Positions 13,428 through 54,034 of a DNA stretch of 64,000 nucleotides are shown here, piece by piece. Both the position numbers and the translations under genes were made by a program. The stretch lies in the IMG/VR virus record IMGVR_UViG_3300035492_000075. One strand, given 5' to 3'. Below the pieces are notes generated by a model, which saw only the letters and a list, made by a program, of their open reading frames with translations, searched no databases and was not told the origin of the DNA. The DNA comes from a virus. The stretch's first letter is position 1. Every line of letters begins with the position of its first letter.

Positions 13428-13442
13428 AGGAGACACTCATCA

Positions 13443-22699: not shown

Positions 22700-23085
22700 G
22701 TTTCCTCCTTTTTGGAAATGTAGACCCAAGTGTAGGGCATTTCGTACAGCAACTCAAGTACTTTCGAAGGAATCACAAGAATCTTCTTATGGATAGCACG
22801 GTAGTTGCCAATGGTGTATTCGTTATCACCACTTTCGTGGCGGATGATAGGGAAGAAGTAACCTTCCAGTTCATCAGCCAGCGCGTCAGTAGCAATTGCG
22901 CTGATTTTGTTCTGATCGTCGAACAAATCGATGTAGAAAATTTTTTTATACGTCCCGGTTACCTCACCAAAGAGGATGTCTTCACCGGAAATCGCTGGTT
23001 TGGGGATAGACCCAATTGGTTGCTCATGAAGCAACGCCATGAGCCGCCCCCAGAGTACGTGTAGTAGATTAGTCGCTGTTGTCAT
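22693..23085 (-). CDS. hypothetical protein
   Basis: 130-aa ORF with an ATGA overlap with the helicase stop. Confidence 0.6.
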   Translation of the reverse strand: MTTATNLLHVLWGRLMALLHEQPIGSIPKPAISGEDILFGEVTGTYKKIFYIDLFDDQNKISAIATDALADELEGYFFPIIRHESGDNEYTIGNYRAIHKKILVIPSKVLELLYEMPYTWVYISKKEETC

Positions 23086-24455
23086 TTTTTCTTTCCTCGT
23101 GTTTGGCCGGTGCGTAGTGCCATATCCAATTTCTTCTTAGCGGACATGGTGTCTTCTCCCTCTGGCTCTGATGCTTTTTTCCCTCCCAGTTTCAGACCAG
23201 CAGGCGGTTTAGCAGTAGTCCCGTTATTCGGCTTATCAGAGATACGCAACGTGTGCGGACAACGATAGAGTATACGATTCTTCGTAGTCTTTCCACCGTT
23301 TCGAATCTTCATCTGAACAGCCTGAACTTGGTTGTTGTCGATGTCCTCGTCCGTAGCAACGAGACCAACGCCCCAGTCCGCTGCGTTGATAACACTGATA
23401 CCACCTGCAATGTGGTGTGGTGAGAGATTCACGACGTCATACCCATCTCGGTTAATCTGACCGGCAGAGAAGCCGTACATGTTGTACTCGTCAAGAATGT
23501 CTTTTAGACCAAACACCTTGCGCTCATCCTCATCGAATTTGTTCATGTCGCGACGCATACCAGAAGAATCAGCACCCATCAGTCCGAGGTAGTCAACTAT
23601 CAGGTAATCTGGTGCTTTACCATACAGGAGGATGTACTCCATCACAACACTACGAATCATACTCGGTGTTGTACCAAAGCGCATCTTTTTAGTCAGGATT
23701 CGACCATACCCCTTCTCGCTTCTCAGAACACTCAGACTTTGAGCAATCTCGGATGCGAGTAGTTTGTGCTTACTGATGTCGTGCCCTGTCAGGATCGCAT
23801 CAAAGCGCTTGGAGTAAAGCTCTTCCCGTAGCTCAAGACTGATGACGATTCCATCGTACCCACGCTTAGAAAATCGCTCAGCGACGTTGGCGAGCATAAC
23901 AGACTTGCCACCGGCAGTTGCAGAGAAAAACAAACCCAGCTCAGCACGACGGACCTTGTTTACGAGCTCATCAATCGCATCGATACCGATACTGATCTCT
24001 TCTACGCCTTCGTCCATATTCTCGATGCGCAGTTGTGGGTCGACAAACAAATCGGTGCCGATGGTACTATCGAGTTTGATGAGAAGTGCCTCGCGCACTC
24101 GTTCGGAGATTCCATGCATGTTGCGGTCTTTCAGAAGCTCAACAGAGTCAATGATTGCCGCTTCCATCGCAGAGTCCTGACACAGCGCCTCGATCTCGTC
24201 AAGTAAATACTGCTCATCCCCCGGTTCAAGCTCACGGTTCTTCAGCTTAACACCCAACTCAGCATCAATCACGTCCATCGCTGGGATGCTATGATATTGT
24301 TCAAAATGATCGAGAACAAAATCCACCACCTCATCGAGCGGAGGTTCAAAGTACGACCCTTTAAGAATCCTAAAACACCGTATGAACGATGGTCTGTGTG
24401 TTAACAGAGTCTCCAACAAGAGCTTCTGTTTTTTATTGATTACGTCGGTAGCCAT
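23082..24455 (-). CDS. gp41: replicative DNA helicase (DnaB/T4 gp41-like)
   Basis: Walker A FSATAGGKS, IVDYLGLM and SAGQINRDG motifs. ATG 24455 follows an AAGGAG SD. Confidence 0.9.
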   Translation of the reverse strand: MATDVINKKQKLLLETLLTHRPSFIRCFRILKGSYFEPPLDEVVDFVLDHFEQYHSIPAMDVIDAELGVKLKNRELEPGDEQYLLDEIEALCQDSAMEAAIIDSVELLKDRNMHGISERVREALLIKLDSTIGTDLFVDPQLRIENMDEGVEEISIGIDAIDELVNKVRRAELGLFFSATAGGKSVMLANVAERFSKRGYDGIVISLELREELYSKRFDAILTGHDISKHKLLASEIAQSLSVLRSEKGYGRILTKKMRFGTTPSMIRSVVMEYILLYGKAPDYLIVDYLGLMGADSSGMRRDMNKFDEDERKVFGLKDILDEYNMYGFSAGQINRDGYDVVNLSPHHIAGGISVINAADWGVGLVATDEDIDNNQVQAVQMKIRNGGKTTKNRILYRCPHTLRISDKPNNGTTAKPPAGLKLGGKKASEPEGEDTMSAKKKLDMALRTGQTRGKKK

Positions 24456-24456
24456 T

Positions 24457-25401
24457 TTACTCCTTTTCCGCCCATAGATTATACCGCACCCTCCCCTCAA
24501 GGTGGTTGCTCGTTGTGTTTTCACTGATCATTTGCATGGCAGCAACTTTGCCATACTTCACAACCGCCTCGTTGAGGTCTTTACAGTCCCATGGTGGGAT
24601 ACAGAGTTCCCATCCATAGCTCGCGAACTGGTCAACGAACTTACATTTACCAGATCGGTCTGGAAGCATTATAACACGTTTCCCTTTCAGAAAAAATGCT
24701 TGCTCCTTCGAAACTTTGTCACCGAGGCACCCAACCGCAAACGGTAGGCTCCGTGCATCGACCGTCCCCTCAACAACGATAGCAATATCCCTTACCCGTC
24801 TCTCGGGCATGTACAGGACATGTGTGTTTCCGTCATAAATGGACACATACTTTCGTTTGGCGACGACATGAAACCCGATCAATCTGCTGCCAGAATACAT
24901 CGCAATCGCAAACAACCCGGCATACTGCCCACGCTCTATAACAAAAATATCATTCGTCCCGACACAGCGTCGTTCAGACCACTCAACAACCCGTTGTTTT
25001 AAATCATCATCTCTGCTTTCCTCGAACGGTATAAACCCTTCGGGAACCTTAATGGCGTGATAACCATGCTTAGTGTATAGGTGCGAGTCTTGGTCTTCCA
25101 TCAACGCCATGAGACCGCTTTTCTTCTTGACTGTCAGAAGATCGATGGGGATTTTTATGTTCATGGTCTGCATCAGGTGTTTGAAGCGCTTCGACGTGTA
25201 TTCACCTAGCTTCATTCCACATGTTGCATCACATTTCCCACGGAAACAGTTGTACCTGATCTCGTCTTCAGTAAAGAAGAAACCACCAGTGCGTGTGCGC
25301 TTCTCACCACAAACAGGACAAAAACAACTATACCACCCGGTGTTCTCCTGTCGATCCAGATGCAGTTGGATGTTTGATTTAAGCGTATCGAAACTATTCA
25401 T
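24457..25401 (-). CDS. gp61: DNA primase (T4 gp61-like, Zn finger + TOPRIM)
   Basis: CFCPVCGEKR...CFRGKC zinc ribbon and VVEGTVDARSL TOPRIM motif. Confidence 0.85.
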   Translation of the reverse strand: MNSFDTLKSNIQLHLDRQENTGWYSCFCPVCGEKRTRTGGFFFTEDEIRYNCFRGKCDATCGMKLGEYTSKRFKHLMQTMNIKIPIDLLTVKKKSGLMALMEDQDSHLYTKHGYHAIKVPEGFIPFEESRDDDLKQRVVEWSERRCVGTNDIFVIERGQYAGLFAIAMYSGSRLIGFHVVAKRKYVSIYDGNTHVLYMPERRVRDIAIVVEGTVDARSLPFAVGCLGDKVSKEQAFFLKGKRVIMLPDRSGKCKFVDQFASYGWELCIPPWDCKDLNEAVVKYGKVAAMQMISENTTSNHLEGRVRYNLWAEKE

Positions 25402-25819: not shown

Positions 25820-26158
25820 ATGCAACACATAAAATTGCTTGACGAGATTCAACTTAAAGACCGTGTATTGACTGGTGTGGTTGATTACGTCACGACCAAA
25901 AATATTATTTTTTACGACATCTCTATGAATGATGATCCAGAAGTAATCAAACTACTACTCATGTGGCGAATGTTCTATACACATATGCGTTTCTCTGTTT
26001 TCAAAGAACTGTTTTTCGCTCATGTCTCAATGCGCAAACCAAACCTTGTAAACAGGAAGAAGATTGTTCACCCAAGCTTCCAGAAAATCGACAAGCCATC
26101 TCGTACTGTGCGTCGACTCACCAAGAAACAACTTGCTGCTGCAACCGACACAGAATAG
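25820..26158 (+). CDS. hypothetical protein (lone plus-strand ORF in the minus-strand block)
   Basis: 112-aa ORF with a GGAGA SD. The 3' end overlaps the convergent gene by 41 nt. Confidence 0.45.
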   Translation: MQHIKLLDEIQLKDRVLTGVVDYVTTKNIIFYDISMNDDPEVIKLLLMWRMFYTHMRFSVFKELFFAHVSMRKPNLVNRKKIVHPSFQKIDKPSRTVRRLTKKQLAAATDTE

Positions 26159-26705
26159 CTGCTATCATAACTGCGTAAGAGACTGCGTGTGATTTTTTGA
26201 AGTATACCCCACTCCGTGGTCTCTTGTACAGAATTCTTCGAACCCCTTCCCTATCTGCTCGATATTCGTCCACCAGATGCGCTTTACCGGGTCGGATTAG
26301 TGCCAAGCAATCAGCTAGCTCGATTATCGAGGTAGGCTCGATATCCTGTATGAGATCGTAATGTGTTGAAATATGGGGCAGCTTTGAAACTATATCACGC
26401 CTGCGTAGGAGACTCCATTCTGGTTCTTCTTCTAACGCAGCCAACAAGTCATCCTTGTTTTTGAATATGTCGTAACTGGTGTTTGTTAGGATGTCGACCT
26501 TGAGCAGGTCCATAGCATCACCATCCTTATAGTCTATAGCTGCATTACCAGTCATATGATCCACTGGGACACGCTGTATGTATACACCTGATGGGTGAGG
26601 CAGGACTTTGCCTGCCTCGGCATTGTACACCATCGCACGGGTGCCATAAGCTGTACGTTCGACCCCACTTTGAACGTCGATGTCTACGTCAAATATTCGA
26701 CTCAT
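26118..26705 (-). CDS. DNA polymerase III alpha-like fragment B (catalytic palm/finger remnants)
   Basis: FDVDIDV, HPSGVYI, LLKVDIL, LALIRPG and YFKKSHAVSYA line up, in order, with PolIIIalpha motifs PDFDxDF, HAGGVxI, KxDFLGL, RPGP and FNKSHxAAYA. Confidence 0.6.
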   Translation of the reverse strand: MSRIFDVDIDVQSGVERTAYGTRAMVYNAEAGKVLPHPSGVYIQRVPVDHMTGNAAIDYKDGDAMDLLKVDILTNTSYDIFKNKDDLLAALEEEPEWSLLRRRDIVSKLPHISTHYDLIQDIEPTSIIELADCLALIRPGKAHLVDEYRADREGVRRILYKRPRSGVYFKKSHAVSYAVMIAAILCRLQQQVVSW

Positions 26706-27160
26706 CACTTAACCAAGTAAAAGTTCACTTCTTCGATCACATCATCAAACTTTGAGATCATCACAGACTTGACAGCGTTTCGCATGCTCCTACCATTGAG
26801 AAATTCTGTCAAGTAGAAAAGCGCCAGTAGTGCTTCCTGTCTGTCCTCATCATTATCATTTGTCTTTTCTAGGATAGCCTTCGCTTGAGCTACCATAGAT
26901 TCCTTCGAACAGATACCGTTCTTGGCATATTCGGTGACTGTGTTGAACATGATCTGAGACGCGGCTAGCGCTGTTTCTTTTTCCAGCCTGACAACACACT
27001 CGAATGCATCCCGCAATCGGGAGTTACTGTAGGCCGTCTCATGGTAGAAGAAATTATGGTCAGGCCACTCATCGACGGCGATATACAATTCTTTCAGGAT
27101 AGAAGCCTCATATTCATCAAGAGGCTTCTTCTCTGTGTTTTTGCACTCACTTAAAGACAT
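26705..27160 (-). CDS. hypothetical protein
   Basis: 151-aa ORF with a TGATG overlap with the upstream stop. Confidence 0.6.
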   Translation of the reverse strand: MSLSECKNTEKKPLDEYEASILKELYIAVDEWPDHNFFYHETAYSNSRLRDAFECVVRLEKETALAASQIMFNTVTEYAKNGICSKESMVAQAKAILEKTNDNDEDRQEALLALFYLTEFLNGRSMRNAVKSVMISKFDDVIEEVNFYLVK

Positions 27161-27873
27161 CAGCCTTTAATCCCCAATCCTTTCTCTTCTAAAGTATTAA
27201 CCAGTTCCATGATCCGGTTCTGGTAGTCAACAGGAAGCCGGTTCATACGCCCATCGAAGTCTGGGTGGTTCATTGCCAACCAGTAGATGCTGATCTTCGC
27301 TTTCTCAATCGACCGAATGAAGAACAGGTCATCGCTTTCGAGCTCGTCTTTAAAGCGTTCAAAGAACTTAGCCGATCCCATGAGGTCGCAGGAATGGGAG
27401 AACAGACGAAACTCACGCATGCTCTGTTCTTCGATGCCAACCTTCAGGAGGGTAGGAAGGTTAGTCAGGTTTTTGATTTGGTTGAGCCAATCAAGATACG
27501 CCAGAACGTCGGTGATCTCGTGTAGGGTACAGAACATCGACAGACGCACGAACTGATTGTAAAACTTGCTCTTGATGAACGTCTTCAGGCTGATGCGAGC
27601 CTTTGGGTTCACTTCACTGATGACATCCTTGTAAAGCTGATACGCTCGCAGTTCAGTCAAAGTGCCCTTTGCAACGTCGCGCAGTGTGTGGCAATTCTTC
27701 TGAGCGAAGTGGCGCTCCAATGCCCAGAACTTTGCAAACGTTTTACCACACACAGGGCATAGGTTGATCCCGTTCTTCAGTGGTACCAACGTGACGTCAT
27801 ACATCGCGTCAACCGAGTTCATGATCTTCAGGTCAGACGCGGTTTTTGATACATCATTTTTCACTTCTTGCAT
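27160..27873 (-). CDS. hypothetical protein with C2H2-like zinc finger
   Basis: LCPVCGKTFAKFWALERHFAQKNCH. ATG 27873 follows GGAGAATAAA. Confidence 0.6.
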   Translation of the reverse strand: MQEVKNDVSKTASDLKIMNSVDAMYDVTLVPLKNGINLCPVCGKTFAKFWALERHFAQKNCHTLRDVAKGTLTELRAYQLYKDVISEVNPKARISLKTFIKSKFYNQFVRLSMFCTLHEITDVLAYLDWLNQIKNLTNLPTLLKVGIEEQSMREFRLFSHSCDLMGSAKFFERFKDELESDDLFFIRSIEKAKISIYWLAMNHPDFDGRMNRLPVDYQNRIMELVNTLEEKGLGIKG

Positions 27874-27874
27874 T

Positions 27875-28297
27875 TTATTCTCCATAAAGCTCTTTTAGCT
27901 CTTTGATATCATCTTCTGACATCATCGGTAGGATGTCTTTTGCTTGATCATACCCACATTCGTAATGTTTCGCCAGTTTTCTGATGATAGAATCTTCATT
28001 CTTACCAACAGACTTCACGAACTGGTATCTAGTCCTGTCGATTCCTGCGTTTGCCGTGATGAGCATCTTCAGAAGTAACCGAGGATGTGCAGAGAACGAA
28101 AAGACAAACTCATTAACGACTGCATCAGTCAGAAGCACATGAATCTCGTTGTTGTCGACGGCACCATTCATCCACATCAACAGAACGAACGGTGACAGAG
28201 ACTTCAACTGGTCGTCGGTGAGCCCATCAACAAAAGCATAATCGCCTTTGTTGATGGCATCAAATAGAGCGAACAAAGTATTATCACGAATCGCCAT
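27875..28297 (-). CDS. gp62: clamp loader small subunit (T4 gp62-like)
   Basis: Lies immediately downstream of the gp44-like gene (TAATG overlap). IIRKLAKHYECGYDQAKDI parallels gp62 IIKLLAKRYQVNTNDAINY. Confidence 0.6.
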   Translation of the reverse strand: MAIRDNTLFALFDAINKGDYAFVDGLTDDQLKSLSPFVLLMWMNGAVDNNEIHVLLTDAVVNEFVFSFSAHPRLLLKMLITANAGIDRTRYQFVKSVGKNEDSIIRKLAKHYECGYDQAKDILPMMSEDDIKELKELYGE

Positions 28298-29214
28298 TAT
28301 TGCTCCATGAAGAGTTGATAGACAAAGGCATCCAGATGCAGACGTTGGTTGGCACAGCGTTGTGCGCGATCAAGGTACTGTGACAGAGAAATAATCGCAG
28401 CATCCGTGTCGAGGTTCTTCACATTCTGGATGTTTGTGTACACCGCTTCGTAGTAGGCATCGTAGTTGCTCCCGTCTACGCCCGCAGTGAGCTGTAGGAG
28501 CGTTTCTTTGTCTACTTCTGACGAAGACCAAGCTTCGACCCATTCGTCCAGTGACGAGCCTTTCACGGCGTTCTGGAGAGCTGTGACCTGTTTGAACTCG
28601 TTGGTGTGCTCGTCAATACTGTTGATGATCTTGCGCAAGTCAGGTGCATACGCCTCAACGTGAGACATCAGATCGTGTTCATCGAGCACTTCGAGTCCTT
28701 CCTTCTCAACGATGTCGCAAATCAGATCGAGGATACCGTCGAGGTTCACAGCACCCATGATAATCGTCTGGAAGCGGCTATGCAGTGCAGGGGTTATCTG
28801 TTTCGGGTTGTTGGCGGTCATAATAAACCTGACACCGTCGCTATACTCTTCGATGATGTCACGCAGCGCATCTTGTGTTTGGCGGGTCAGGCGATCAGCC
28901 TCTTCCATCAGGACGATCTTAAAACCACCCATGGAGATTTTTTTCATCCACGGCTCCAGTTCTTCACGGATGAACCCGATCCCGTTCGTCAGTGAACCGT
29001 TGATGCGCTTCAGGTCAGATGGGTCAACATCGAGTTCGTTGATCAGGATTCGTGCTAGTGTTGATTTCCCACAACCGGGCGAACCTGTGAACAGCAGATT
29101 GGGGATTTCCCCATCTTTGAGCCATTTGGTTACTTTGTCTTCAGTCGTTTTGTCCTGAAAGACGTAACCCTTGATGGTATTTGGGCGGTATTTTTCAACC
29201 AGCAGTTTCTTCAT
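28297..29214 (-). CDS. gp44: clamp loader large subunit (RFC/T4 gp44-like AAA+)
   Basis: KYRPNTI, Walker A GSPGCGKST, Walker B-like MEEADRL and sensor-like TANN motifs. Confidence 0.9.
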   Translation of the reverse strand: MKKLLVEKYRPNTIKGYVFQDKTTEDKVTKWLKDGEIPNLLFTGSPGCGKSTLARILINELDVDPSDLKRINGSLTNGIGFIREELEPWMKKISMGGFKIVLMEEADRLTRQTQDALRDIIEEYSDGVRFIMTANNPKQITPALHSRFQTIIMGAVNLDGILDLICDIVEKEGLEVLDEHDLMSHVEAYAPDLRKIINSIDEHTNEFKQVTALQNAVKGSSLDEWVEAWSSSEVDKETLLQLTAGVDGSNYDAYYEAVYTNIQNVKNLDTDAAIISLSQYLDRAQRCANQRLHLDAFVYQLFMEQ

Positions 29215-30842: not shown

Positions 30843-33800
30843 TTACAATTTACAGGATTCGCACGAACCTTCCTCGTCATCATCCTCTTCCAGATGTTCT
30901 GAGATCGGATCGAATTGGATGATTGGTGTGTCTTTCTCTTCGTCATCGTCGGTGTTGGTGAGGAAGTTCTCATAGTACCACGTCTTCATCCCCAGCTCAG
31001 CAGCAAGGAACAGACGCTGATACAGTTCTGACAGTTTCTTCTTACGCCCACTTGTTAGGTCGGTGTAGAAGTCAGCAGAAATTCCTTGACCAGTAAACTT
31101 CTGAATGATGGCATAAAACTTCACCAAATCCAAGTGATCGATGTCATATGCCCACTGATAAGACTCAGATAGAGTTTCCCAACCCGGTGCCTCGAAGAAC
31201 ACAATGCCTTTCTTGGACTTCTTGTAAATCTGGTGCTCACGGTACGGGTACGGGCCATTCATGCTGCCAGTGTACACAGAGCTGCTCTCTACAGGCATGT
31301 AAGCTTCCAGTACAGAGAAGCGCATACCATATCGCTTGATCTCTTCACGCAGCCCTTCCCAGTCACACAGAAGCGGTTGGGTGTGGTGTTCATCGACGCC
31401 TTTGGAATAGGTGTCAATCGGTAGCCACGGCTTCTCTTCTGAGTAACGAGTCTTGTGGAACCACCCACATGCACCACGCTCTTTCGCCAGACGGACAGAT
31501 GCCTTGTGCAGGGCAAACGAATGCAGCTCAGCCAGACGGTGAATAGCGTTACGACCTTCAACCGTGTCGTATTTCAGCCCCTGCTTCGCCATCCAGTGTG
31601 CAACGTCAGTCATGCCTACGCCAATGCTGCGACGGTTCTTTGCGGTGAACTCAAGACGCGGGTATGGGTACTGAGTACGCTCAATCGTGTTGTCAATGGT
31701 CTTCGCAGCCACATAAACGGTCTGGATGTAGTCTTCTGCGTCTTCGATGCGAGAAACAACGATACTGGCAAGGAAACACAATGCGATCTCACCACTAGAA
31801 TCGATGTTTGAAAGCGATTCGACGCTCGGGATAGCCTTGGTGACCAGAGCGATCTCTTGGCATTGACCAGTCAAAATCCCGTTGAACATACCCATATGGC
31901 GTTTTGGTTCATTGAAGCAGTATGTGTCATCAACCCGACCCTCGTCAACAACAGACTCAACCATAACAAAACGCTTCGCGTCCCGTTGTACTGACCGTTT
32001 CTCGATCTTCAGTCGACGGCACATGAGCCCCATCGAAATCAGTTTTTGGGTGTCGACGCTGGTTAGTAGGATGCGATACGCGTCTTTAGTGTCGAAATAA
32101 CCAAGCTCACCGGAACCATCGTTTAGCGGAAACAGTTGCTGCCCAGCGTCAGACATCTTCTTAACCTTAGCAGAAACACCAAGAGTATGGAGCATCATCT
32201 GAACCTCACGCAGGAACGGAAGGTTAATCGACACGGCAGCTAACTGTTCGTTTGTTCCATTTCGATACACGCAACCATCAGCGTCTAGATATCCAGCAAG
32301 CCACTCAAGACGTGATTCGATAGAATATCCACTCGATGGTACGAAAAACTTTTCACGAAGGTCTTGATAGTGCTTATGCTGACGTTTGACGTTGTCATTA
32401 GCGTACCACTTTGACCCACCGCTAAACTCTTCCGCTAGGAGACGTTTTTCGCCGTATAGGTAAATCCGCTGCCCTTCTTTTGTTAGACAACCATCACCAC
32501 TGTAGAAACCGTTGATATACGCTTTATCCAACTCGACACCATCCCCAAAGATCACAGGGAGATCAAATTTCGCGAGCTTGTCCCCAGCGACCAGATCGGC
32601 AGCACGAACCTCTTTATAGGGCTTACCATAGCCGTCAAAGACATAGAACTTGTGATATGGGGTGCATTCAAGCTCATAACCAGAGTCCGTGACTACTTTC
32701 AGCAGGCGTTGGTTTTCACCGGTCTTCACAACATCCACATCCGACCATTCCATCCCATTCCACACAGGAACATTACAACCTTCGAGCTCGGCGATGGGGA
32801 CATAACCACGATCAGTAAGAATCTGAGTTTCCGGTGCAACACAAAGATTTGACAGACGAATCTCCTCCTTGAACGGGGTGTGCTTGTTCACGTTGTCAAT
32901 AAACGTCGGGTAGATGCGAGAGACGTCATTGCGCTGGTACAGGAACAGGTCGATCACCTTACGCGCAGGCAGGATCGTTTTCTTGATCAGCGGGTTGTTG
33001 AACACAGCATCATATTCAGCACGGAACGCATCGGTATCACGAGAGTACATCAAATCCCATAGGCGTGGGGCGTAGTATTTGCTTACGAGCATCCAATCTT
33101 CATTGCGAGCTGCTTTCTCAATGCACAGGTGCTTCAGTACGATACTGTAATCGAGGTGCTCGATACGTGCCTTCGGATCAGTGCGCTGACTCTTCAGGCG
33201 CAGCAACATTTCGACTTCAGGATCGAGACAGGTGAACGTCACAGTAGCAGAGCCGCCACGGGTTACCTGAGTGTTACCACACACCATCGTCTTACCGTTA
33301 CGACGAACAATAAGAATATGAGTCGGTACGGTGACACAATATACCATTCCATCATATGGCTGAGTTGTGATCTTGGTTGATTCGCCCGTAGACTCGTGTT
33401 GGTTGTATACGGTGGTGCGATAACAAGACCCGTACTTTACTAGAGAACTACGAAGATTCGTCACAGCAGCAACAAACTGAACGGCGTCAGCGACCTCTTT
33501 CACGGATGTATTGAAAACACATATAGCATTCCCCTTTAGTTCATAATCACCATCCCAGTTACGCAACTCGTCAAAGAACTCAAGCGCTGCTTTTGTAGAC
33601 CATGATCGTTCATAAACCCAGTTCAGGTTTTTCTCAAGAACAAAATGAGGTTGTTTGACTCGATAGAAATCATACAGTCCGTCCTTCGTCATTCGCTCAA
33701 CATGAGACACCCCAAACGACATTGTCTTCTCGGAATGGAATGGAATTTGGTTCTCACGAAGTAACCATTCCAACCGTTCGGACTTGCGTTTTTTAGAGAA

Positions 33801-35078
33801 TCCAAACAGGTATGAGTCACTAACTGTTTCATTCGCCCGCACGGTTCCATCTGCCTGAAACGCAATCCGCAGGCGGTCTAACGGTGTTAAATCGGTATAA
33901 TCACCATTCAACGAAGCACCAAAGTCCCATGCTGTGCACCGGGATGGGACAAATTCGTCCGCTCGAACGAATTCATACCCATCGCTAGTTTGTTCTGTCT
34001 TGTCCCCGTATCGAACGCGTCTGTTCGCCATCTGGTGATTGTCAGTTACCATGATGTCAACACCTTTCTTATGAAAATGGTACATCGTCCCGCTGAAAGG
34101 AAGCGCTACATACTCGGTCGGTTTAACGAACTCTACGGTGCGGTCGTGGTTTACCTGTGCAACCAAGTCTTCCGGTGTCAGATCGCGGAATAGTTTAAAC
34201 CCACGAGAAGTCAACACCTCTGTCTCTGGGTCATAACACATCGCCTTCACAGCCTTGTCAAGATATCCGTACAGGGGGAACTTACCAGTATGTTTGACAC
34301 GACCACCCTTCACCGGGTCATTGATAGAGCGAGTGTCGTATTCGATACCGATACCTGAGCGGTTTGCAGTCATCTCAAACGCAACGTGTGTAGCAGCACC
34401 AATCGACTGCATGGTATCGCCACCAGTGATCACACAGCAGGACGGTGCGCCTTGCATGGTGGTACGCTCACCATTCAGGGTTGGGGTTGGTAGGTTGATT
34501 TTGAGAGATTTAAACTCTTGGTACGCCTCAATCACGCTCTTCAGGCGGGTAGACGGGTGCTCATCACGGTTGTTGGACATCGCCATACCCATGCTCATCA
34601 TCTGAGGACTTTCATGACACACATCATTGGTGCTGATGGCGTACTTGTCGTAGAACTGCTTCAGGGTGGCATATTCATATGTGAAGTCAGCCGGGTGGTC
34701 GATGACAGCGTCAAGGACATCCAGTTCTTCGTCGGTGTACCCCATGAAGTCCCAGTGACCAGCACGAACCATGTAGGCGTAGTAGTCCTTCAGGGAAGGG
34801 ATAGAGAAGTCGCCAAATGCTTCTTTGTAGATTTGACCCAGCAGCAGACGAGCCGCCATCTTCACATGACCGCGATCCTTGCGTTCAACGCATGTCTTGA
34901 TCAGTGCATTGTGGATGTCTGACGATTTCGCGGTGTCTCCCAGAACTCGGATAGCCGAAAACAGCACATCAGACCACGACACGTCACACGTCTGGCTTGC
35001 CCATTCAGCCCATTTGTTGAGCTTGTCTGCGTCAAAAGCCTCGGTTGATCCGTCTCGTTTTATTACAAATTTAACCAT
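30843..35078 (-). CDS. nrdA: ribonucleotide reductase class Ia alpha subunit containing two inteins
   Basis: ATP-cone N-terminus (VIKRDGSTEAFDADK). Exteins sum to 762 aa and are colinear with NrdA (RGGSAT, SNL|CQEIAL, C-terminal CESCKL). Confidence 0.95.
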   Translation of the reverse strand: MVKFVIKRDGSTEAFDADKLNKWAEWASQTCDVSWSDVLFSAIRVLGDTAKSSDIHNALIKTCVERKDRGHVKMAARLLLGQIYKEAFGDFSIPSLKDYYAYMVRAGHWDFMGYTDEELDVLDAVIDHPADFTYEYATLKQFYDKYAISTNDVCHESPQMMSMGMAMSNNRDEHPSTRLKSVIEAYQEFKSLKINLPTPTLNGERTTMQGAPSCCVITGGDTMQSIGAATHVAFEMTANRSGIGIEYDTRSINDPVKGGRVKHTGKFPLYGYLDKAVKAMCYDPETEVLTSRGFKLFRDLTPEDLVAQVNHDRTVEFVKPTEYVALPFSGTMYHFHKKGVDIMVTDNHQMANRRVRYGDKTEQTSDGYEFVRADEFVPSRCTAWDFGASLNGDYTDLTPLDRLRIAFQADGTVRANETVSDSYLFGFSKKRKSERLEWLLRENQIPFHSEKTMSFGVSHVERMTKDGLYDFYRVKQPHFVLEKNLNWVYERSWSTKAALEFFDELRNWDGDYELKGNAICVFNTSVKEVADAVQFVAAVTNLRSSLVKYGSCYRTTVYNQHESTGESTKITTQPYDGMVYCVTVPTHILIVRRNGKTMVCGNTQVTRGGSATVTFTCLDPEVEMLLRLKSQRTDPKARIEHLDYSIVLKHLCIEKAARNEDWMLVSKYYAPRLWDLMYSRDTDAFRAEYDAVFNNPLIKKTILPARKVIDLFLYQRNDVSRIYPTFIDNVNKHTPFKEEIRLSNLCVAPETQILTDRGYVPIAELEGCNVPVWNGMEWSDVDVVKTGENQRLLKVVTDSGYELECTPYHKFYVFDGYGKPYKEVRAADLVAGDKLAKFDLPVIFGDGVELDKAYINGFYSGDGCLTKEGQRIYLYGEKRLLAEEFSGGSKWYANDNVKRQHKHYQDLREKFFVPSSGYSIESRLEWLAGYLDADGCVYRNGTNEQLAAVSINLPFLREVQMMLHTLGVSAKVKKMSDAGQQLFPLNDGSGELGYFDTKDAYRILLTSVDTQKLISMGLMCRRLKIEKRSVQRDAKRFVMVESVVDEGRVDDTYCFNEPKRHMGMFNGILTGQCQEIALVTKAIPSVESLSNIDSSGEIALCFLASIVVSRIEDAEDYIQTVYVAAKTIDNTIERTQYPYPRLEFTAKNRRSIGVGMTDVAHWMAKQGLKYDTVEGRNAIHRLAELHSFALHKASVRLAKERGACGWFHKTRYSEEKPWLPIDTYSKGVDEHHTQPLLCDWEGLREEIKRYGMRFSVLEAYMPVESSSVYTGSMNGPYPYREHQIYKKSKKGIVFFEAPGWETLSESYQWAYDIDHLDLVKFYAIIQKFTGQGISADFYTDLTSGRKKKLSELYQRLFLAAELGMKTWYYENFLTNTDDDEEKDTPIIQFDPISEHLEEDDDEEGSCESCKL
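31863..32843 (-). mobile_element. intein 2 (327 aa, LAGLIDADG type) at the catalytic SNL/C site of NrdA
   Basis: Starts CVAPETQILT after ...RLSNL and ends ...FNGILTGQ before CQEIAL. DOD motifs YINGFYSGDGC and WLAGYLDADGC. Codons checked at both junctions. Confidence 0.85.
33273..34238 (-). mobile_element. intein 1 (322 aa, LAGLIDADG type) in NrdA
   Basis: Starts CYDPETEVLT after ...AVKAM and ends ...KTMVCGN before TQVTRGGSAT. DOD-like motifs RIAFQADGT and FFDELRNWDGD. Confidence 0.85.
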
Positions 35079-39470: not shown

Positions 39471-39497
39471 AAAATAAAATGGGGGCGAAAGCCCCCC
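39471..39497 (-). terminator. rho-independent terminator after the RNA ligase gene
   Basis: GGGGGC-TTTC-GCCCCC followed by ATTTTATTTT on the minus strand. Confidence 0.65.
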
Positions 39498-39502
39498 AGT
39501 CC

Positions 39503-46263: not shown

Positions 46264-46488
46264 TTACTCCGTTTCGTCTTTTTTGATAGAACCGTACACT
46301 ACGATTCCAGAAGGCTTCACGGTAGCAGTACCACGACCGCGTGTCAACACCACCGGCTCATCTTCCGAGCGGGACTGGATAGTCCAGCCCTCTCGAATGA
46401 GCCCATCGATGATTTTTCGCAGAGCGACAAAGCGCCCTGACTGGCTTCGACGTTCAGTCGAACCCGAAGAGGTCTCTTTTGATTGCAT
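46264..46488 (-). CDS. small hypothetical protein
   Basis: ATG 46488 follows an AAGGAAG SD. Overlaps the 3' end of the polymerase gene by 35 nt. Confidence 0.45.
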   Translation of the reverse strand: MQSKETSSGSTERRSQSGRFVALRKIIDGLIREGWTIQSRSEDEPVVLTRGRGTATVKPSGIVVYGSIKKDETE

Positions 46489-47365
46489 CTCGTCTTCCTT
46501 TGGCATCCCACTCAAGGGACGCAAGATAGTTTTCAATTTTCTTCTTGGCTTTTAGCCATTCCGTCGCATAGTCAATCTTGAACTCGTCGAACCAGTCTGG
46601 AAAGACTGTCATATCAATCGGGAACGCAATGTACTTGCTCTTCGGATGTTTGATGTACACCAGACCAACCTTTTCACCCGGCATGATCTGCTTGTCCAGT
46701 TTACCACAGTTCTCGTTCCAGAACATAGTAGCTCGTACCTGATACGGGAAACCTTTCATCGACCCCGTCATGGCATAGGCATCCTGACAGCGCTTCAGCG
46801 TCTTGACGTTGATTGGCTTGGCAATCTCGATAGCGCTGAACTCTTCAAACGAACGACGCATCTTCTGAACCTCATCCAACACATAATCCATATCATAACC
46901 GTCAAGAATCATATCCACCAGCTTACGGAGAATCTGTTTAATCGCCTTGGATGTGTCGGACTTCTTGAGCTCAACACCCATGATCTTCATCTTGTCGACG
47001 CGCTTTCCTTCAGAGTCGACAACATGCATGATGTAACGCTTCTTCGTCAGGAACAGAGCCTTGTCGAATACTACCTCGCGATCCGTCTTTACCGTCCCCT
47101 TACGAGACTCAGGCGTGTTGAATGCTCGAACACAGAAGTCTGGGAATGCTTCATTGGTCAGATTACCGATCTCGTCTGCCACAGCCACGATATCGTCAAG
47201 TGAGTCGTCTTCTCCGACGACACTGTTCAAGGTCAGCATGATCGAGTCAGTATCACCAGCAATCGCATGCTTCAGCGGTAACTGATCCCACACATACCCT
47301 TCTTTGGGGTCGTCTCTCCAACCCCATACCACGTTTGTCTCTTCAAAATCGATCATATCAGTCAT
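46454..47365 (-). CDS. gp43: family B DNA polymerase, C-terminal cistron (palm motif C + thumb; gp43B-like)
   Basis: Contains AGDTDS (motif C) and a C-terminal DLFGFD clamp-binding-like tail. ATG 47365 has its own GGAGG SD 9 nt upstream. Confidence 0.85.
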   Translation of the reverse strand: MTDMIDFEETNVVWGWRDDPKEGYVWDQLPLKHAIAGDTDSIMLTLNSVVGEDDSLDDIVAVADEIGNLTNEAFPDFCVRAFNTPESRKGTVKTDREVVFDKALFLTKKRYIMHVVDSEGKRVDKMKIMGVELKKSDTSKAIKQILRKLVDMILDGYDMDYVLDEVQKMRRSFEEFSAIEIAKPINVKTLKRCQDAYAMTGSMKGFPYQVRATMFWNENCGKLDKQIMPGEKVGLVYIKHPKSKYIAFPIDMTVFPDWFDEFKIDYATEWLKAKKKIENYLASLEWDAKGRRDAIKRDLFGFD

Positions 47366-49094
47366 TTGCCAGTGCCTCCACATACGAGTTTGCTTTGTAT
47401 GCTTGGAATTTACTAATCACCTGACCGGTCAGAGTAATACTCTTCGCCAGACGGATGTCGTAGAGGCGGAAGTGCGCGTTACTGATACATCCATACAGCG
47501 AGTTACAAATAATCTTCATCACGCTCTGATAGAGGTTATTGATGTTTGCTTCATCTTCGTCACCCCGCTCTTCTGCCTCCTTCTTCATCCGCTGGTACAT
47601 CTTACGGGTGTCGAATCTGTCTTTGACGTATACAGACAACAAGCCGAATTCACCACTGAAGAGAGTGCCATTCGCAGAGATACACCAGCCGTTCTCAATG
47701 ATAATATCATAGAGTGCGCTAGCATTGCATTCGATGTGATCGGTGACTTCCCCATCAATGATCTGATCAAGAATAACCATTGTGTCTTTCTTGGTCATTA
47801 CAGCGATATAATCTTTGTATCCGCCGTTGAGCTGCCCAACCATCGTCTCTGTGGAGAGTCCGAGCATCATCATGGCACTGGGGTACAGAGCAGTCAAGTC
47901 GACCGTAAAGCCCCATTTGTGAAGCCCTGAAATGGTGTCATAAACGATAGCACCCTCAAACTTCTCCTTCTCACTACCAGTCTTGTCAGCCAACACAACC
48001 CCACGGCTATGGCAGAACTTCAGGAAGCCCATTTCAATCGGCTTTACAGAACCAACTACGTCTCGGGCGAACACACTGTTCATGCGAGACAGGGTTACTG
48101 CCAGACGAATGATCTGGTGCTTACGGTCAAGGTACAGTAACAGACGAGCGTCGTGGATACCGTATTCAAAGAAGAGGTCAGGGTTCTCGCGGTAGAGCTC
48201 ACCAAGGTCACCCTCGTAGTCAACCTTGTCAATACCCAAGTCTTCAGTACAGACGGCACTGAGGCTGAACGAAGTCTTCTCAGACGGGATGAACTTCTTG
48301 TAGAGCTCAAGCATATCAAGATGCTGTCTACCAACAAGTGTCCATTCGACACGCTCTTCGGCATTATCATTGATAAACTCACGCTTCTTGGCTTTGAAGC
48401 CATCGCGACAGAACATGCGGAGCGCGTCTTTCTCTCCGAACTCCATGATCGCCCGTTCCATGATATACGGTAAGTCGAAGCCGTTGGTATACCAACCCGC
48501 CATGATGTCAACATCACGCTCTTCCAGCATGTCTGCAAGTGTTTCGAGTAGCTCACGTTCATCACGACACGAGATGGTCACGACAGGATACTCACCGTAC
48601 TTGTCGGTTACCTTCACCTTAGCTTCATCGAGCTTCAAGATGAGATACTCTTGACGCTTGGTGTCAAAAGCTTGGAACGAGTTAATGTACCCGTATGGGT
48701 TTTGTGGTGATGGGTATCCGTTTCCGTCGTTCAGGTCAAAGAAGACCTCGATATCATACAGGAAGACGTTATAGGGAGCATCCAAAGGGGCAGCAGCGTA
48801 TGTGTCGATGAGGCATTTGTACGTCGGTGATACGTCGCTTTCATAGAGTGACTGCCTGCTGTCAACGAATTTATTGAAAGTCCAGCGATCTTCAAAGTTC
48901 ATGCGTTTGAGGGGACGACCGAAGAGGTCTTTCGCATCCGGGTTACCGCTGTTGTCTAGCTGGTAGCAGTACAGGTATTTGGAGATGGGGTGAGTCTCGA
49001 CAATCAACTCCCCATCTTTGTCGCGGCACCACACAGTCAACTCGTCTGAGGTGGCTACTGCGTCAATATAGTTGTAGTTCATGAAACTCTCCAA
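47358..49094 (-). CDS. gp43: family B DNA polymerase, N-terminal cistron (exonuclease, motif A and B; gp43A-like)
   Basis: Exo motifs (FLYDIEV), motif A VDLTALYPS and motif B KIICNSLYG. Ends 25 aa after motif B. Confidence 0.9.
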   Translation of the reverse strand: MESFMNYNYIDAVATSDELTVWCRDKDGELIVETHPISKYLYCYQLDNSGNPDAKDLFGRPLKRMNFEDRWTFNKFVDSRQSLYESDVSPTYKCLIDTYAAAPLDAPYNVFLYDIEVFFDLNDGNGYPSPQNPYGYINSFQAFDTKRQEYLILKLDEAKVKVTDKYGEYPVVTISCRDERELLETLADMLEERDVDIMAGWYTNGFDLPYIMERAIMEFGEKDALRMFCRDGFKAKKREFINDNAEERVEWTLVGRQHLDMLELYKKFIPSEKTSFSLSAVCTEDLGIDKVDYEGDLGELYRENPDLFFEYGIHDARLLLYLDRKHQIIRLAVTLSRMNSVFARDVVGSVKPIEMGFLKFCHSRGVVLADKTGSEKEKFEGAIVYDTISGLHKWGFTVDLTALYPSAMMMLGLSTETMVGQLNGGYKDYIAVMTKKDTMVILDQIIDGEVTDHIECNASALYDIIIENGWCISANGTLFSGEFGLLSVYVKDRFDTRKMYQRMKKEAEERGDEDEANINNLYQSVMKIICNSLYGCISNAHFRLYDIRLAKSITLTGQVISKFQAYKANSYVEALAND

Positions 49095-53475: not shown

Positions 53476-53504
53476 ATCGTACAGGAACGAGGACTATGTG
53501 TCAA
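53476..53504 (-). promoter_or_regulatory. sigma70-like promoter TTGACA-N17-TACGAT
   Basis: Minus-strand hexamers at 53504-53499 and 53481-53476. The -35 element overlaps the stop of the upstream gene. Confidence 0.5.
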
Positions 53505-54034
53505 TAATCATTGTCGTCGATTTTAGTAAGCTCAATGAAAGGAATGTCATATTTGACAGGGTCGATGTCATTGATCTCTAGGAGGTAGCATACCAGAGAC
53601 GCACAGGAACTTCCACGCCCAACACCCCACACCACACCATTTTCCTTAAATTTCTGTATAACGTCGGAAGTTCGTAATAGAAAAATTGTGTTCTGTTTCT
53701 TTTGAAAATATGTAAGCTCTTGTTCAAGCCTTTCAATGTACGCTGGGTTGTCACTGAAACGCGGGGAAGCCTCTATCCGAGAAACAAGCAGTTCAAACGC
53801 TTCGTCTTCGTTGATGTGCACATCTTCATACTCAGGCTCAGGAGACGTGAGAATGTCCTTGTGGTACAAAGTTTGGTAGACTTCCCCATCATACCCCTCC
53901 ACATCGTCGTCGATGATCATCCAATCAATGCTTCTACCACGGATGATATTCTCAGCCATGGTATCTGCTGTTACTAAACTGTACCCATTTTCAAGAAGGA
54001 TACGGCGTCTTGCCTCGTCTAGATACTCTCTCAT
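53501..54034 (-). CDS. DNA polymerase III alpha-like fragment A (N-terminal palm segment)
   Basis: YIERLEQEL..F...FLLRTSDVIQKFKENGVVWGVGRGSSCASLVCYLLEINDIDPVKYDIPF parallels PolIIIalpha RLxxEL...YFLIV...GPGRGSAAGSLVAYxLxITxxDP...LxFERF. Confidence 0.65.
   Translation of the reverse strand: MREYLDEARRRILLENGYSLVTADTMAENIIRGRSIDWMIIDDDVEGYDGEVYQTLYHKDILTSPEPEYEDVHINEDEAFELLVSRIEASPRFSDNPAYIERLEQELTYFQKKQNTIFLLRTSDVIQKFKENGVVWGVGRGSSCASLVCYLLEINDIDPVKYDIPFIELTKIDDNDY

What the first reader, a model, noticed from the sequence alone, without database searches (positions are those of the whole stretch)
26118..26705. Miniature PolIII-alpha-like catalytic fragment (part B of a gene split 27 kb apart)
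This 195-aa ORF carries, in canonical order, look-alikes of the C-family polymerase active-site blocks:
- FDVDIDV (two catalytic Asp of PDFDxDF).
- HPSGVYI (HAGGVxI).
- LLKVDIL (third Asp, KxDFLGL).
- LALIRPG (RPGP).
- YFKKSHAVSYA (FNKSHxAAYA).

These blocks span roughly 360 aa in bacterial DnaE, so the thumb and much of the fingers appear deleted. The preceding palm segment is a separate ORF at 53501-54034.

The phage already encodes a T4-type family B polymerase. A second, radically reduced C-family core would therefore be unexpected.
Basis: partly seen in the sequence, partly recalled or inferred. Interest (0 to 1): 0.75.

Follow-up and report, generated by a model that had tools for sequence, protein, structure and literature searches.

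The report
Split miniature PolIII-alpha polymerase, part B
This 195-aa phage gene really is the metal-binding half of a miniature bacterial-type (family C) DNA polymerase whose nucleotide-binding half is a separate gene 27 kb away, but this two-gene mini-polymerase was already described by computation in giant phages in 2021 and has never been tested in the laboratory.

Summary

- **Part B.** Asp6, Asp8, Asp10 and Asp71 are invariant in its homologues. Its AlphaFold model returns only C-family polymerases from the PDB.
- **Part A.** The ORF at 53501-54034 (minus strand, 177 aa) matches E. coli DnaE residues 314-393, including the GRGS triphosphate loop. It ends just before the catalytic PDFDVDF strand, where part B begins.
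- **Fusion model.** A direct A+B fusion folds with pLDDT 92.9 and pTM 0.88. All 19 of its significant PDB matches are PolIII-alpha or PolC.
- **Evolution.** Both genes are under purifying selection and co-occur in about 96 cultured phages. They are always split there, 5 to 182 kb apart. Both sit among replication genes, next to a family B polymerase.
- **Prior work.** Iyer et al. 2021 (Viruses 13:63) described this "minimal, split DNA polymerase III alpha" in group 2.2 jumbo phages. The window therefore holds a new member of a known kind.
- The system also occurs in roughly 140-kb, non-jumbo phages. Rare naturally fused forms of 375-376 aa exist, and a 629-aa unsplit relative exists.

Enzyme activity and biological role remain untested.

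The parts
26118..26705 (-). Part B: the C-terminal half of the mini PolIII-alpha (195 aa). It carries the catalytic strands and a reduced finger module. Motifs: DxDxD (D6, D8, D10), HPSG (37-40), KVD (K69, D71), RPG (138-140) and KKSH (170-173).
   Evidence: ORF and motif positions. phrog_11778 at 2.7e-48. Invariant residues. AlphaFold model pLDDT 90.4. Foldseek top 15 hits all C-family polymerases. hhalign to P0364 at E=2.8e-12. dN/dS 0.094.
53501..54034 (-). Part A: the N-terminal half of the mini PolIII-alpha (177 aa). It corresponds to E. coli DnaE residues from about 255-314 to 399. The invariant WGVGRGSSCAS triphosphate-binding loop lies at residues 136-146 (window 53597-53629).
   Evidence: PF07733 at 7e-17. 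phmmer to E. coli and Taq PolIII-alpha structures at 1.8e-10. hhalign to E. coli DnaE 314-393 at 97.3% probability. NCBIfam fragment-level hits from model position about 255. Invariant residues. dN/dS 0.073.
26673..26693 (-). Codons for FDVDIDV. This is the strand carrying the two catalytic Asp residues (equivalent to E. coli D401 and D403) plus the D405 equivalent.
26487..26507 (-). Codons for LLKVDIL. This holds the third catalytic Asp (D71, equivalent to E. coli D555) and K69 (equivalent to K553).
26705..27160 (-). Upstream 151-aa ORF. Its TGA stop overlaps the ATG of part B (TGATG), which suggests translational coupling. Its function is unknown.
   Evidence: The same arrangement is seen in related contigs.
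25820..26158 (+). Convergent 112-aa ORF that overlaps the 3' end of part B. A counterpart is present at the same position next to B in Slicko01, RaK2, XacN1 and metagenomic contigs, and next to the fused genes. Whether it belongs to the system is unknown.
46454..49094 (-). Companion family B (T4 gp43-like) DNA polymerase, encoded as two overlapping ORFs. The first (47358-49094) holds the exonuclease and the N-terminal part of the polymerase domain. The second (46454-47383) holds the C-terminal part.

Best explanation
Parts A and B are the two subunits of the split minimal DNA polymerase III alpha already described in group 2.2 jumbo phages.

**Shown here.**
- Together, A and B cover one Pol-beta-like nucleotidyltransferase palm plus a reduced finger module.
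- A supplies the GRGS loop, which in PolIII-alpha holds the triphosphate of the incoming dNTP.
- B supplies the strand with the two metal-binding Asp residues (D6, D8), the strand with the third Asp (D71, beside K69), and the RPG and KKSH finger motifs.
- The gene break falls in the loop between the helix after GRGS and the DxD strand. Neither protein therefore holds a complete active site.

**Inferred.**
- The two proteins assemble non-covalently into a heterodimer of about 43 kDa.
- That heterodimer performs two-metal-ion nucleotidyl transfer, most probably templated DNA synthesis.
- It serves as a second, accessory polymerase beside the T4-type family B replicase, for repair, gap filling or part of one strand's synthesis.
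- It lacks the PHP domain, the thumb, the clamp-binding domain, the OB fold and the tau-binding domain. On its own it should be distributive and without proofreading.
For: **Homology of A.** PF07733 scores 7e-17. A aligns with E. coli DnaE 312-389 at 1.8e-10, and hhalign gives 97.3% probability.

**Homology of B.**
- phrog_405 scores 6.9e-6.
- hhalign to the 629-aa PF07733+PF17657 protein P0364 gives E=2.8e-12.
- Foldseek on the B-only model puts 15 C-family polymerases first. Phage DnaE-like polymerases come first in the viral structure library.

**Fusion model.** The A+B fusion has pLDDT 92.9 and pTM 0.88. All 19 of its significant PDB hits are PolIII-alpha or PolC, and the next hit has E=2.1.

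**Conservation.** The catalytic and binding residues are invariant. Purifying selection acts on both genes, with omega 0.09 for B and 0.07 for A.

**Co-occurrence.**
- The fused query P0248 finds 181 places in 96 phage records. None covers at least 80% of the query in one place.
- The genus distributions of A and B mirror each other.

**Natural fusions.** Fused forms of 375-376 aa occur in three clusters from different samples. In them, PF07733 runs straight across the junction. On a rough tree they nest inside the split forms.

**Gene context.** Both genes sit in replication-gene clusters in the window, Slicko01, RaK2 and XacN1.
- B lies between the clamp loader and the primase and helicase genes.
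- A lies between a helicase gene and a GroES-like gene.
- Sources.

**Published reading.** Iyer et al. 2021 reached the same interpretation.
Against: - No biochemical evidence exists for interaction or activity, neither here nor in the literature searched.
- The fusion model used a covalent join and an unpaired alignment. Its well-packed interface is therefore not independent proof of heterodimer formation.
- Loss of the thumb and the clamp-binding region removes most of the DNA-duplex contacts known in PolIII-alpha (own knowledge of PDB entry 3e0d). Templated synthesis is therefore not assured.
- The two genes are never adjacent. That is unusual for obligate partners.
- Direct sequence searches of B against the PDB were not significant. 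A comparison with E. coli DnaE as a single sequence gave only a short match. B's assignment therefore rests on transitive profile evidence, the PHROG profiles and the predicted fold.
Confidence: 0.78

Rival explanations
1. A and B do form one active site, but the enzyme is not a templated DNA polymerase. It would instead use the PolIII palm for another nucleotidyl transfer, such as untemplated tailing, primer-like synthesis, DNA or nucleotide modification, or a nucleotide signal.
For: - The Pol-beta-like nucleotidyltransferase fold supports many such chemistries (own knowledge).
- The thumb, the clamp-binding domain, the OB fold and the PHP domain are all absent.
- The phage already has a complete family B replicase, a clamp loader, a primase and a helicase.
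Against: - The finger motifs that position the dNTP and template in PolIII-alpha are retained and invariant. These are RPG and KKSH, including the His equivalent to E. coli H760.
- The only structural neighbours are DNA polymerases.
- There is no match to defence or signalling families.
- The genes lie inside replication clusters.
Confidence: 0.13
2. A and B are independent proteins that no longer work together. For example, they could be structural or regulatory replisome adaptors derived from polymerase fragments (pseudo-enzymes).
For: - The genes lie 5 to 182 kb apart and are never adjacent.
- Each one is embedded in a different conserved neighbourhood.
Against: - All catalytic residues are invariant over deep divergence. 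Pseudo-enzymes do not usually keep them.
- A and B co-occur strictly.
- Natural fusions keep the DnaE order and junction.
- Each half alone lacks a complete nucleotidyltransferase core.
Confidence: 0.05
3. The two ORFs are decaying remnants of a captured dnaE gene, or they are joined after translation by a split intein as in cyanobacterial DnaE.
For: - A polymerase gene broken in two resembles a disrupted gene at first sight.
- Cyanobacterial DnaE is a famous trans-spliced case (own knowledge).
Against: - The B family has 1632 clusters at 90% identity, all of constant length near 200 aa. The A family is likewise constant in length.
- Omega is about 0.07-0.09.
- There is no room for intein halves. 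A aligns with DnaE to within about 6 residues of its C-terminus, and B aligns from residue 5.
- Pfam found no intein or Hint domain.
Confidence: 0.02

Closest known systems
Split minimal DNA polymerase III alpha of group 2.2 jumbo phages (Iyer, Anantharaman, Krishnan, Burroughs, Aravind 2021, Viruses 13:63; PMC7824862)
   Same: - There are two stand-alone proteins: an N-terminal NTP-binding part and a C-terminal Mg2+ and template-binding part.
- They are encoded by distant genes.
- No other PolIII domains are present.
- A family B polymerase accompanies them.
- The window's proteins are homologous to those of RaK2-like phages, XacN1, PA5oct, Atu_ph07 and SCTP-2.
   Different: - The nearest cultured relatives are Alishewanella phages Slicko01 and Slickus01, at 141 kb (54.5% identity for B, 37.6% for A). 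That is below the paper's 180-kb jumbo cut-off.
- The searches I made of the paper's text turned up no mention of fused 375-aa forms or of intermediate unsplit forms of about 630 aa.
- The paper reads the mini form as ancestral-like. My rough tree and the size series fit reduction followed by re-fusion at least as well.
Bacterial replicative C-family polymerases (DnaE / PolIII-alpha, PolC)
   Same: - The same palm fold is present.
- The same GRGS loop, Asp triad (E. coli D401, D403, D555), K-x-D, RPG and [NK]KSH motifs occur in the same order.
   Different: - The phage form totals about 372 aa against 1160 aa.
- It has no PHP domain, no thumb, no clamp-binding helix-hairpin-helix region, no OB fold and no tau-binding domain.
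- The segment from the D405 equivalent to the HxxG block is 27 aa instead of 107-108.
- The segment from the RPG block to the KSH block is about 32 aa instead of about 117.
- It is split into two polypeptides.
- NCBIfam models score A far below their cut-offs and do not detect B at all.
Cyanobacterial split DnaE joined by a split intein (own knowledge)
   Same: A dnaE-type gene is encoded as two distant pieces.
   Different: - The break point differs. Here it falls before the catalytic Asp strand.
- No intein sequence is present.
- The pieces are minimal rather than full length.
Shortened unsplit phage DnaE-like polymerases (P0364 of 629 aa; viral-library entries of about 370-800 aa)
   Same: - They share B-family signature strings: PDIDIDVQS, KHPSG and ELADCLALLRP.
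- They occur in phage-type replication contexts.
   Different: - They are single polypeptides.
- They retain an N-terminal PHP-like region and a longer finger module. PF17657 scores 1.6e-18 in P0364.
Split family B polymerase gp43 of some T4-related phages (own knowledge: Aeromonas phage Aeh1 genes 43A and 43B)
   Same: It is a phage replicase encoded as two ORFs that must reassemble. The window's own family B polymerase is also in two ORFs.
   Different: It belongs to a different polymerase family, and its pieces are adjacent rather than distant.

Membership tests
Split minimal PolIII-alpha of group 2.2 phages (Iyer et al. 2021) | Two stand-alone proteins that correspond to the NTP-binding N-terminal part and the Mg2+/template-binding C-terminal part of the PolIII-alpha catalytic module | tested here: met
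   Part A matches PF07733 positions 20-90 and carries the GRGS loop. Part B carries the Asp triad and the finger motifs.
Split minimal PolIII-alpha of group 2.2 phages (Iyer et al. 2021) | The two genes are distantly located | tested here: met
   They are 26.8 kb apart in the window. In cultured relatives the distance ranges from 5 to 182 kb.
Split minimal PolIII-alpha of group 2.2 phages (Iyer et al. 2021) | Accompanied by a family B DNA polymerase and T4-type replication genes | tested here: met
   The family B polymerase lies at 46454-49094. A clamp loader, primase, DnaB-like helicase, SSB, UvsX-like RecA and rIIA/rIIB are also present.
Split minimal PolIII-alpha of group 2.2 phages (Iyer et al. 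2021) | Sequence homology to the family members in RaK2-like, XacN1, PA5oct and Atu_ph07 phages | tested here: met
   tblastn gives 34-41% identity over at least 90% of B. A is found in the same records.
Split minimal PolIII-alpha of group 2.2 phages (Iyer et al. 2021) | Genome is a jumbo phage (over 180 kb) | not testable with these tools
   Only 64 kb of sequence is available. The closest isolates have complete genomes of 141 kb, and related contigs are 140-161 kb. This branch is therefore probably not jumbo.
C-family DNA polymerase catalytic core (DnaE/PolC) | Pol-beta-like palm with three catalytic Asp residues (E. coli D401, D403, D555) | tested here: met
   D6, D8 and D71 are invariant. 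Foldseek hits are C-family polymerases only.
C-family DNA polymerase catalytic core (DnaE/PolC) | GRGS triphosphate-binding loop on the same polypeptide as the Asp triad | tested here: not met
   The loop is present and invariant, but it lies on the separate protein A.
C-family DNA polymerase catalytic core (DnaE/PolC) | N-terminal PHP domain | tested here: not met
   No PF02811 match was found in A or B. A begins at about DnaE position 255.
C-family DNA polymerase catalytic core (DnaE/PolC) | Thumb domain inserted in the palm | tested here: not met
   There are 27 residues between D10 and H37, against 107-108 between the matching points in E. coli. In the model this segment is a beta-hairpin.
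C-family DNA polymerase catalytic core (DnaE/PolC) | Full finger domain | tested here: inconclusive
   PF17657 scores 21.9 bits against a cut-off of 22 and covers only profile positions 53-104 of 166. The RPG and KSH motifs are kept, but about 85 residues between them are missing.
C-family DNA polymerase catalytic core (DnaE/PolC) | Clamp-binding domain, OB fold and tau-binding C-terminal domains | tested here: not met
   B ends 22 residues after the KSH motif.
C-family DNA polymerase catalytic core (DnaE/PolC) | Template-directed DNA polymerase activity | not testable with these tools
   This needs biochemistry.
Split-intein DnaE | N- and C-intein halves at the break point | tested here: not met
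   There is no spare sequence at A's C-terminus or B's N-terminus, and Pfam found no Hint or intein match.

The most novel reading that the evidence does not exclude
The A+B pair would be the smallest natural C-family enzyme, an obligate two-subunit nucleotidyltransferase whose real job in T4-type replisomes is not bulk templated replication. It could be a specialised step that the family B polymerase cannot perform, such as primer hand-off, untemplated or damage-tolerant synthesis, or a non-DNA-polymerase nucleotidyl transfer. The rare 375-aa fused forms would then be secondary re-fusions, which would show that the halves are physically coupled.
Probability: 0.15. Interest if true: 0.75.

Novelty: new member of a known kind. 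Interest (0 to 1): 0.35.

Why it matters
C-family polymerases are the bacterial replicases and were long thought to be large, multi-domain and strictly cellular or cell-derived. A core of about 370 aa in two chains, conserved in more than a thousand phage lineages beside a family B replicase, raises several questions.

- **Minimal requirements.** It asks what the smallest sufficient unit for C-family catalysis is.
- **Two polymerases.** It asks why a T4-type replisome needs a second polymerase.
- **Origin.** It asks whether the mini form is a relic or a reduction.

This window does not open those questions, because Iyer et al. raised them in 2021. It does add practical handles. One is a natural single-chain version (P0248 and its relatives) suited to biochemistry. 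Another is a set of cultured phages of about 141 kb (Slicko01) that carry the system. It also flags an annotation gap: part B is invisible to NCBIfam and is mostly labelled 'hypothetical protein'.

Tried and rejected
**Searches that gave little or nothing**
- Near-identity DNA searches of both loci against 50,697 phage records found nothing.
- phmmer of B against PDB sequences gave only a spurious TetR hit.
- The B-family profile against PDB sequences put DnaE at a non-significant E=1.7, although at the expected motifs.
- hhalign of the B profile against E. coli DnaE as a single sequence aligned only 37 columns, at E=1.3e-3.
- NCBIfam found nothing for B, and PADLOC found nothing for A, B or their neighbours.
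- The supplements of Iyer et al. are not held, so the published accession list could not be cross-checked.
- Literature searches for experimental follow-up found none.
- No DnaQ-like exonuclease turned up among the window ORFs scanned, so the idea of an epsilon partner was not pursued.

**Technical dead ends**
- A first mixed alignment of fused, A-only and B-only rows was misaligned by MAFFT (alignment A3).
- Local MAFFT trials then found a set of 60 A rows and 20 B rows that aligns correctly.

**Ideas rejected**
- The intein or trans-splicing idea fails for lack of room at the junction.
- The pseudogene idea fails on conservation and dN/dS.
Full report
**1. What is at the coordinates**

The finding's ORF is on the minus strand. 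Its stop codon is at 26118-26120 and its ATG is at 26705, giving 195 aa. The mechanical ORF list starts one codon earlier, at a GTG. The ATG is the better start for two reasons. Homologues begin M-x-R-x-F-D. The ATG also overlaps the TGA of the upstream 151-aa ORF as TGATG, a typical translational-coupling junction.

In E. coli DnaE the matching blocks start at residues 400, 511, 553, 639 and 756. About 360 aa of DnaE therefore correspond to about 170 aa here.

The companion ORF at 53501-54034 (minus strand, 177 aa) also exists.

**2. Is it really PolIII-alpha?**

*Part A.* The sequence evidence is unambiguous.
- Pfam PF07733 scores E=7e-17.
- phmmer finds E. coli PolIII-alpha structures at 1.8e-10, aligning A 90-167 with DnaE 312-389.
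- The A-family profile aligns with DnaE 314-393 at 97.3% probability.
- The WGVGRGSSCAS block is invariant in 31 homologues of 26-66% identity. It corresponds to the GRGS triphosphate loop of DnaE (G361-S364).
- NCBIfam DnaE models align A from model position about 255. They score far below their full-length cut-offs.

*Part B.* This half is much more diverged.
- Direct searches against PDB sequences fail.
- NCBIfam finds nothing.
- Pfam's finger model scores 21.9 bits against a cut-off of 22.

Four independent lines nevertheless tie B to the family.
- It matches phrog_11778 ('DNA polymerase') at 2.7e-48. It also matches the 1190-position phage DnaE profile phrog_405, at positions 579-698, with E=6.9e-6.
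- The B-family profile aligns over 138 columns with residues 326-501 of a 629-aa metagenomic protein, P0364.
  - The alignment has 97.6% probability and E=2.8e-12.
  - It includes the DxDxD, HPSG, K-x-D and ELADCLALxRP blocks.
  - P0364 itself is a solid PF07733 (1.7e-42) plus PF17657 (1.6e-18) protein.
- An AlphaFold model of B alone has pLDDT 90.4 and pTM 0.79. Its first 15 PDB matches are all C-family polymerases: Taq, M. tuberculosis and E. coli PolIII-alpha, and a PolC-type entry.
  - E-values run from 7e-4 to 0.12, with probabilities of 0.87-1.0.
  - The next hits have probabilities of 0.06 or less.
  - Against the viral structure library, the top hits are phage DnaE-like polymerases.
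- The residues that matter are invariant.
  - D6, D8, D10, H37, D49, D71, R138, P139, K141, K170 and H173 are invariant in 29 homologues of 46-81% identity, and K69 is nearly invariant there.
  - The DxDxD, H-x-x-G, K-x-D, RP and [KR]-x-H blocks persist in RaK2, XacN1 and RsoM2USA at 34-41% identity.
  - D6, D8 and D10 line up with E. coli D401, D403 and D405. K69 and D71 line up with K553 and D555. H173 lines up with H760.

**3. The two halves make one domain**

A's last aligned residues correspond to about E. coli residue 393-399, and B's residue 6 corresponds to D401. The gene break therefore falls in the short loop between the helix that follows GRGS and the beta-strand that carries the two catalytic Asp residues. 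Neither protein contains a whole nucleotidyltransferase core.

*Fusion model.* I modelled a direct A+B concatenation (372 aa). The alignment held 60 A-only rows and 20 B-only rows (alignment A5).
- The model has mean pLDDT 92.9 and pTM 0.88. The only soft spot is at the junction.
- Foldseek returns 19 PDB hits at E of 1e-3 or better. Every one is PolIII-alpha or PolC, with query TM-scores of 0.48-0.59. The 20th hit has E=2.1.
- One caveat applies. The chains were covalently joined and the alignment carries no pairing information. The model shows that the halves are compatible with one fold. It does not show that they bind each other.

*Natural fusions.* A phmmer scan of 1.84 billion representative proteins with the fused query gave 343 hits at E of 1e-10 or better.
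- Nearly all of the listed top 150 are stand-alone proteins of about 170 aa (A type) or about 200 aa (B type).
- One is a 375-aa protein, P0248, that matches across the junction in a single stretch.
- A follow-up search found two more such proteins, P0379 and P0380 (376 aa, 78-81% identity). They come from different samples and sources.
- In these proteins PF07733 runs uninterrupted over the junction.
- They sit at a 'B-type' locus, followed by the same convergent small ORF.
- In a rough neighbour-joining tree of the B region rooted on P0364, the fused clade is nested among split forms. It lies near the root in only 1 of 100 bootstrap replicates. This suggests secondary re-fusion. The tree is too crude to settle the direction of change.

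**4. Conservation, distribution and context**

*Family size and selection.*
- The B family has 1632 clusters at 90% identity, and every one of the 120 best listed is a stand-alone protein of about 200 aa (171-215 aa).
- The A family is likewise stand-alone at about 170-195 aa.
- dN/dS is 0.094 for B against a 97%-identical relative. It is 0.073 for A, although that value rests on only 9 differences.

*Cultured phages.*
- B occurs in 96 records: RaK2-like phages of enterobacteria, PA5oct-like Pseudomonas phages, XacN1, Xoo-sp13, RsoM2USA, Stenotrophomonas CM1 and the Alishewanella phages.
- A jumbo-type A query finds 84 records with a mirror-image genus distribution.
- The fused query finds 181 places in 96 records, and none is contiguous.
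- The separation varies widely.

| Phage | Distance between A and B |
|---|---|
| RsoM2USA | 5 kb |
| Slicko01 | 11 kb |
| XacN1, Xoo-sp13, CM1 | 14-15 kb |
| this window | 27 kb |
| RaK2, CBB | 34 kb |
| PA5oct | 43 kb |
| SCTP-2 | 116 kb |
| Atu_ph07 | 182 kb |

*Gene order in the window, read along the minus strand.*
- Around B: clamp loader (28297-29214), three small ORFs, B, a 114-aa ORF, primase (24457-25401), DnaB-like helicase (23082-24524), and further on SSB.
- Around A: a DEAD-box helicase (54528-55988), a 159-aa ORF, A, then a GroES-like gene (53170-53454). After that come a MoxR-like ATPase, a vWA protein, a ClpP-like protease and the family B polymerase.
- The same local orders recur in Slicko01, XacN1 and RaK2.
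- No defence-system model matches.

**5. Comparison with what is known**

Iyer, Anantharaman, Krishnan, Burroughs and Aravind (Viruses 2021, 13:63; PMC7824862) described this arrangement. [quoted passage not shown] It accompanies the family B polymerase, and they suggest it may cooperate with that enzyme in strand synthesis or repair.

The window's proteins are homologues of the proteins in those very phage groups. The finding is therefore a rediscovery and a new member of that kind.

No later paper in the searchable library reports an experiment on it. In GenBank, part A is often labelled 'DNA polymerase III alpha subunit'. Part B is mostly labelled 'hypothetical protein', while RefSeq records call it 'DNA polymerase'.

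- **Not confined to jumbo phages.** The closest cultured relatives are complete 141-kb genomes. Several related contigs are 140-161 kb. Both are below the paper's 180-kb cut-off.
- **Natural single-chain versions exist**.
- **Unsplit relatives of intermediate length exist.**
  - P0364 (629 aa) shares B-family signature strings.
  - The viral structure library holds phage DnaE-like proteins from about 370 aa upward, with many between about 500 and 800 aa.
  - This size series fits stepwise reduction of a phage DnaE at least as well as the 'ancestral relic' reading offered in the paper. I cannot decide between the two.

**7. Mechanism, with status of each step**

*Shown here.*
- A and B are homologous to the two contiguous halves of the PolIII-alpha palm and fingers.
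- The catalytic residues are conserved.
- Both genes are under purifying selection.
- They co-occur, and natural fusions exist.
- Both sit in replication-gene clusters.

*Inferred.*
- A and B form a heterodimer that rebuilds one two-metal active site.
- The substrate is a dNTP on primed DNA.
- The role is accessory to the family B replicase.
- The complex has low processivity and no proofreading, because the PHP domain, thumb, clamp-binding domain, OB fold and tau-binding domain are absent.

*Rivals.*
- A non-templated or non-polymerase nucleotidyl transfer, about 0.13.
- Independent, non-catalytic roles for the two proteins, about 0.05.
- Gene decay or intein splicing, about 0.02. This is rejected on conservation and on lack of room at the junction.

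**8. Verdict**

The mini-polymerase is striking biology, but it was published as a computational finding in 2021. This window adds a new, probably non-jumbo member plus some useful extensions. I set interest at 0.35. The remaining value lies in the untested biochemistry.

Noticed in passing
window 46454-49094 (-): The family B (gp43-like) DNA polymerase is itself encoded as two ORFs that overlap by 26 nt. The first (47358-49094) holds the exonuclease plus PF00136 positions 15-192. The second (46454-47383) holds PF00136 positions 224-352. This could be a frameshift or a two-subunit polymerase, as in some T4-related phages.
   Followed up: partly
window 30843-35078 (-): The NrdA-like ribonucleotide reductase large subunit is 1411 aa, roughly twice the usual size. 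Its PHROG matches fall in three stretches, and an inserted region (about residues 276-604) matches other families. This looks like an intein or another insertion.
   Followed up: no
window 25820-26158 (+); L001 7270-7596; L004 3776-4132; L005 1843-2280; L007 4548-4886; L008 2035-2394; L011 1641-2000: A small convergent ORF of about 110-145 aa overlaps or abuts the 3' end of part B. A counterpart sits at the same position in Slicko01 (30% identity, E=1e-17), RaK2, XacN1 and metagenomic relatives, and next to the fused 376-aa genes. It has no family match.
   Followed up: partly
window 27160-28297 (-) and 54031-54510 (-): Small ORFs flanking B and A are conserved with Slicko01 and XacN1. ORF 27875-28297 resembles XacN1 ORF239. 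ORF 27160-27885 has a zinc-finger-like CxxC...H motif and resembles XacN1 ORF238. ORF 54031-54510 resembles Slicko01 79539-80006. They are possible replisome accessory proteins or partners of the mini-polymerase.
   Followed up: partly
window 53170-53454 (-): A GroES/Cpn10-like gene lies directly downstream of part A. The same pairing is seen in Slicko01 and XacN1. In RaK2 the positional counterpart, ORF164, is annotated 'head morphogenesis'.
   Followed up: partly
L005 (XacN1) 1-373; RsoM2USA ORF458: XacN1, RsoM2USA and Atu_ph07 also encode a stand-alone DnaQ-like 'PolIII epsilon' exonuclease. In XacN1 it lies about 2.5 kb downstream of part B. No counterpart was seen among the window ORFs scanned. 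It might be a proofreading partner in some lineages.
   Followed up: partly
L009 1066-2193; L011 519-1649 (P0248, P0379, P0380): These are natural single-chain (fused) mini PolIII-alpha proteins of 375-376 aa from three metagenomic samples. On a rough tree they nest among split forms.
   Followed up: yes
L010 9853-11742 (P0364): This is a 629-aa unsplit PolIII-alpha relative with B-family signature motifs. Its contig also encodes UvrD-like and SNF2 helicases, Mu Gam and DnaG primase. It may be an evolutionary intermediate between full-length DnaE and the mini form.
   Followed up: partly
window 38886-39506, 45702-46259, 44935-45705, 56802-57854, 12477-13436: Other genes of note are a circularly permuted YpsA/SLOG protein, a Macro-domain protein, an Mre11-like phosphoesterase and two homing-endonuclease-like ORFs. 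One of the endonuclease-like ORFs has a T5orf172 domain.
   Followed up: no
window 26118-26150 (-), C-terminus of part B: The very last residue is Trp in most close homologues (tails ending ...GIxW or VSW). It is not conserved in RaK2, XacN1 or RsoM2USA. This may be a lineage-specific docking tail.
   Followed up: no
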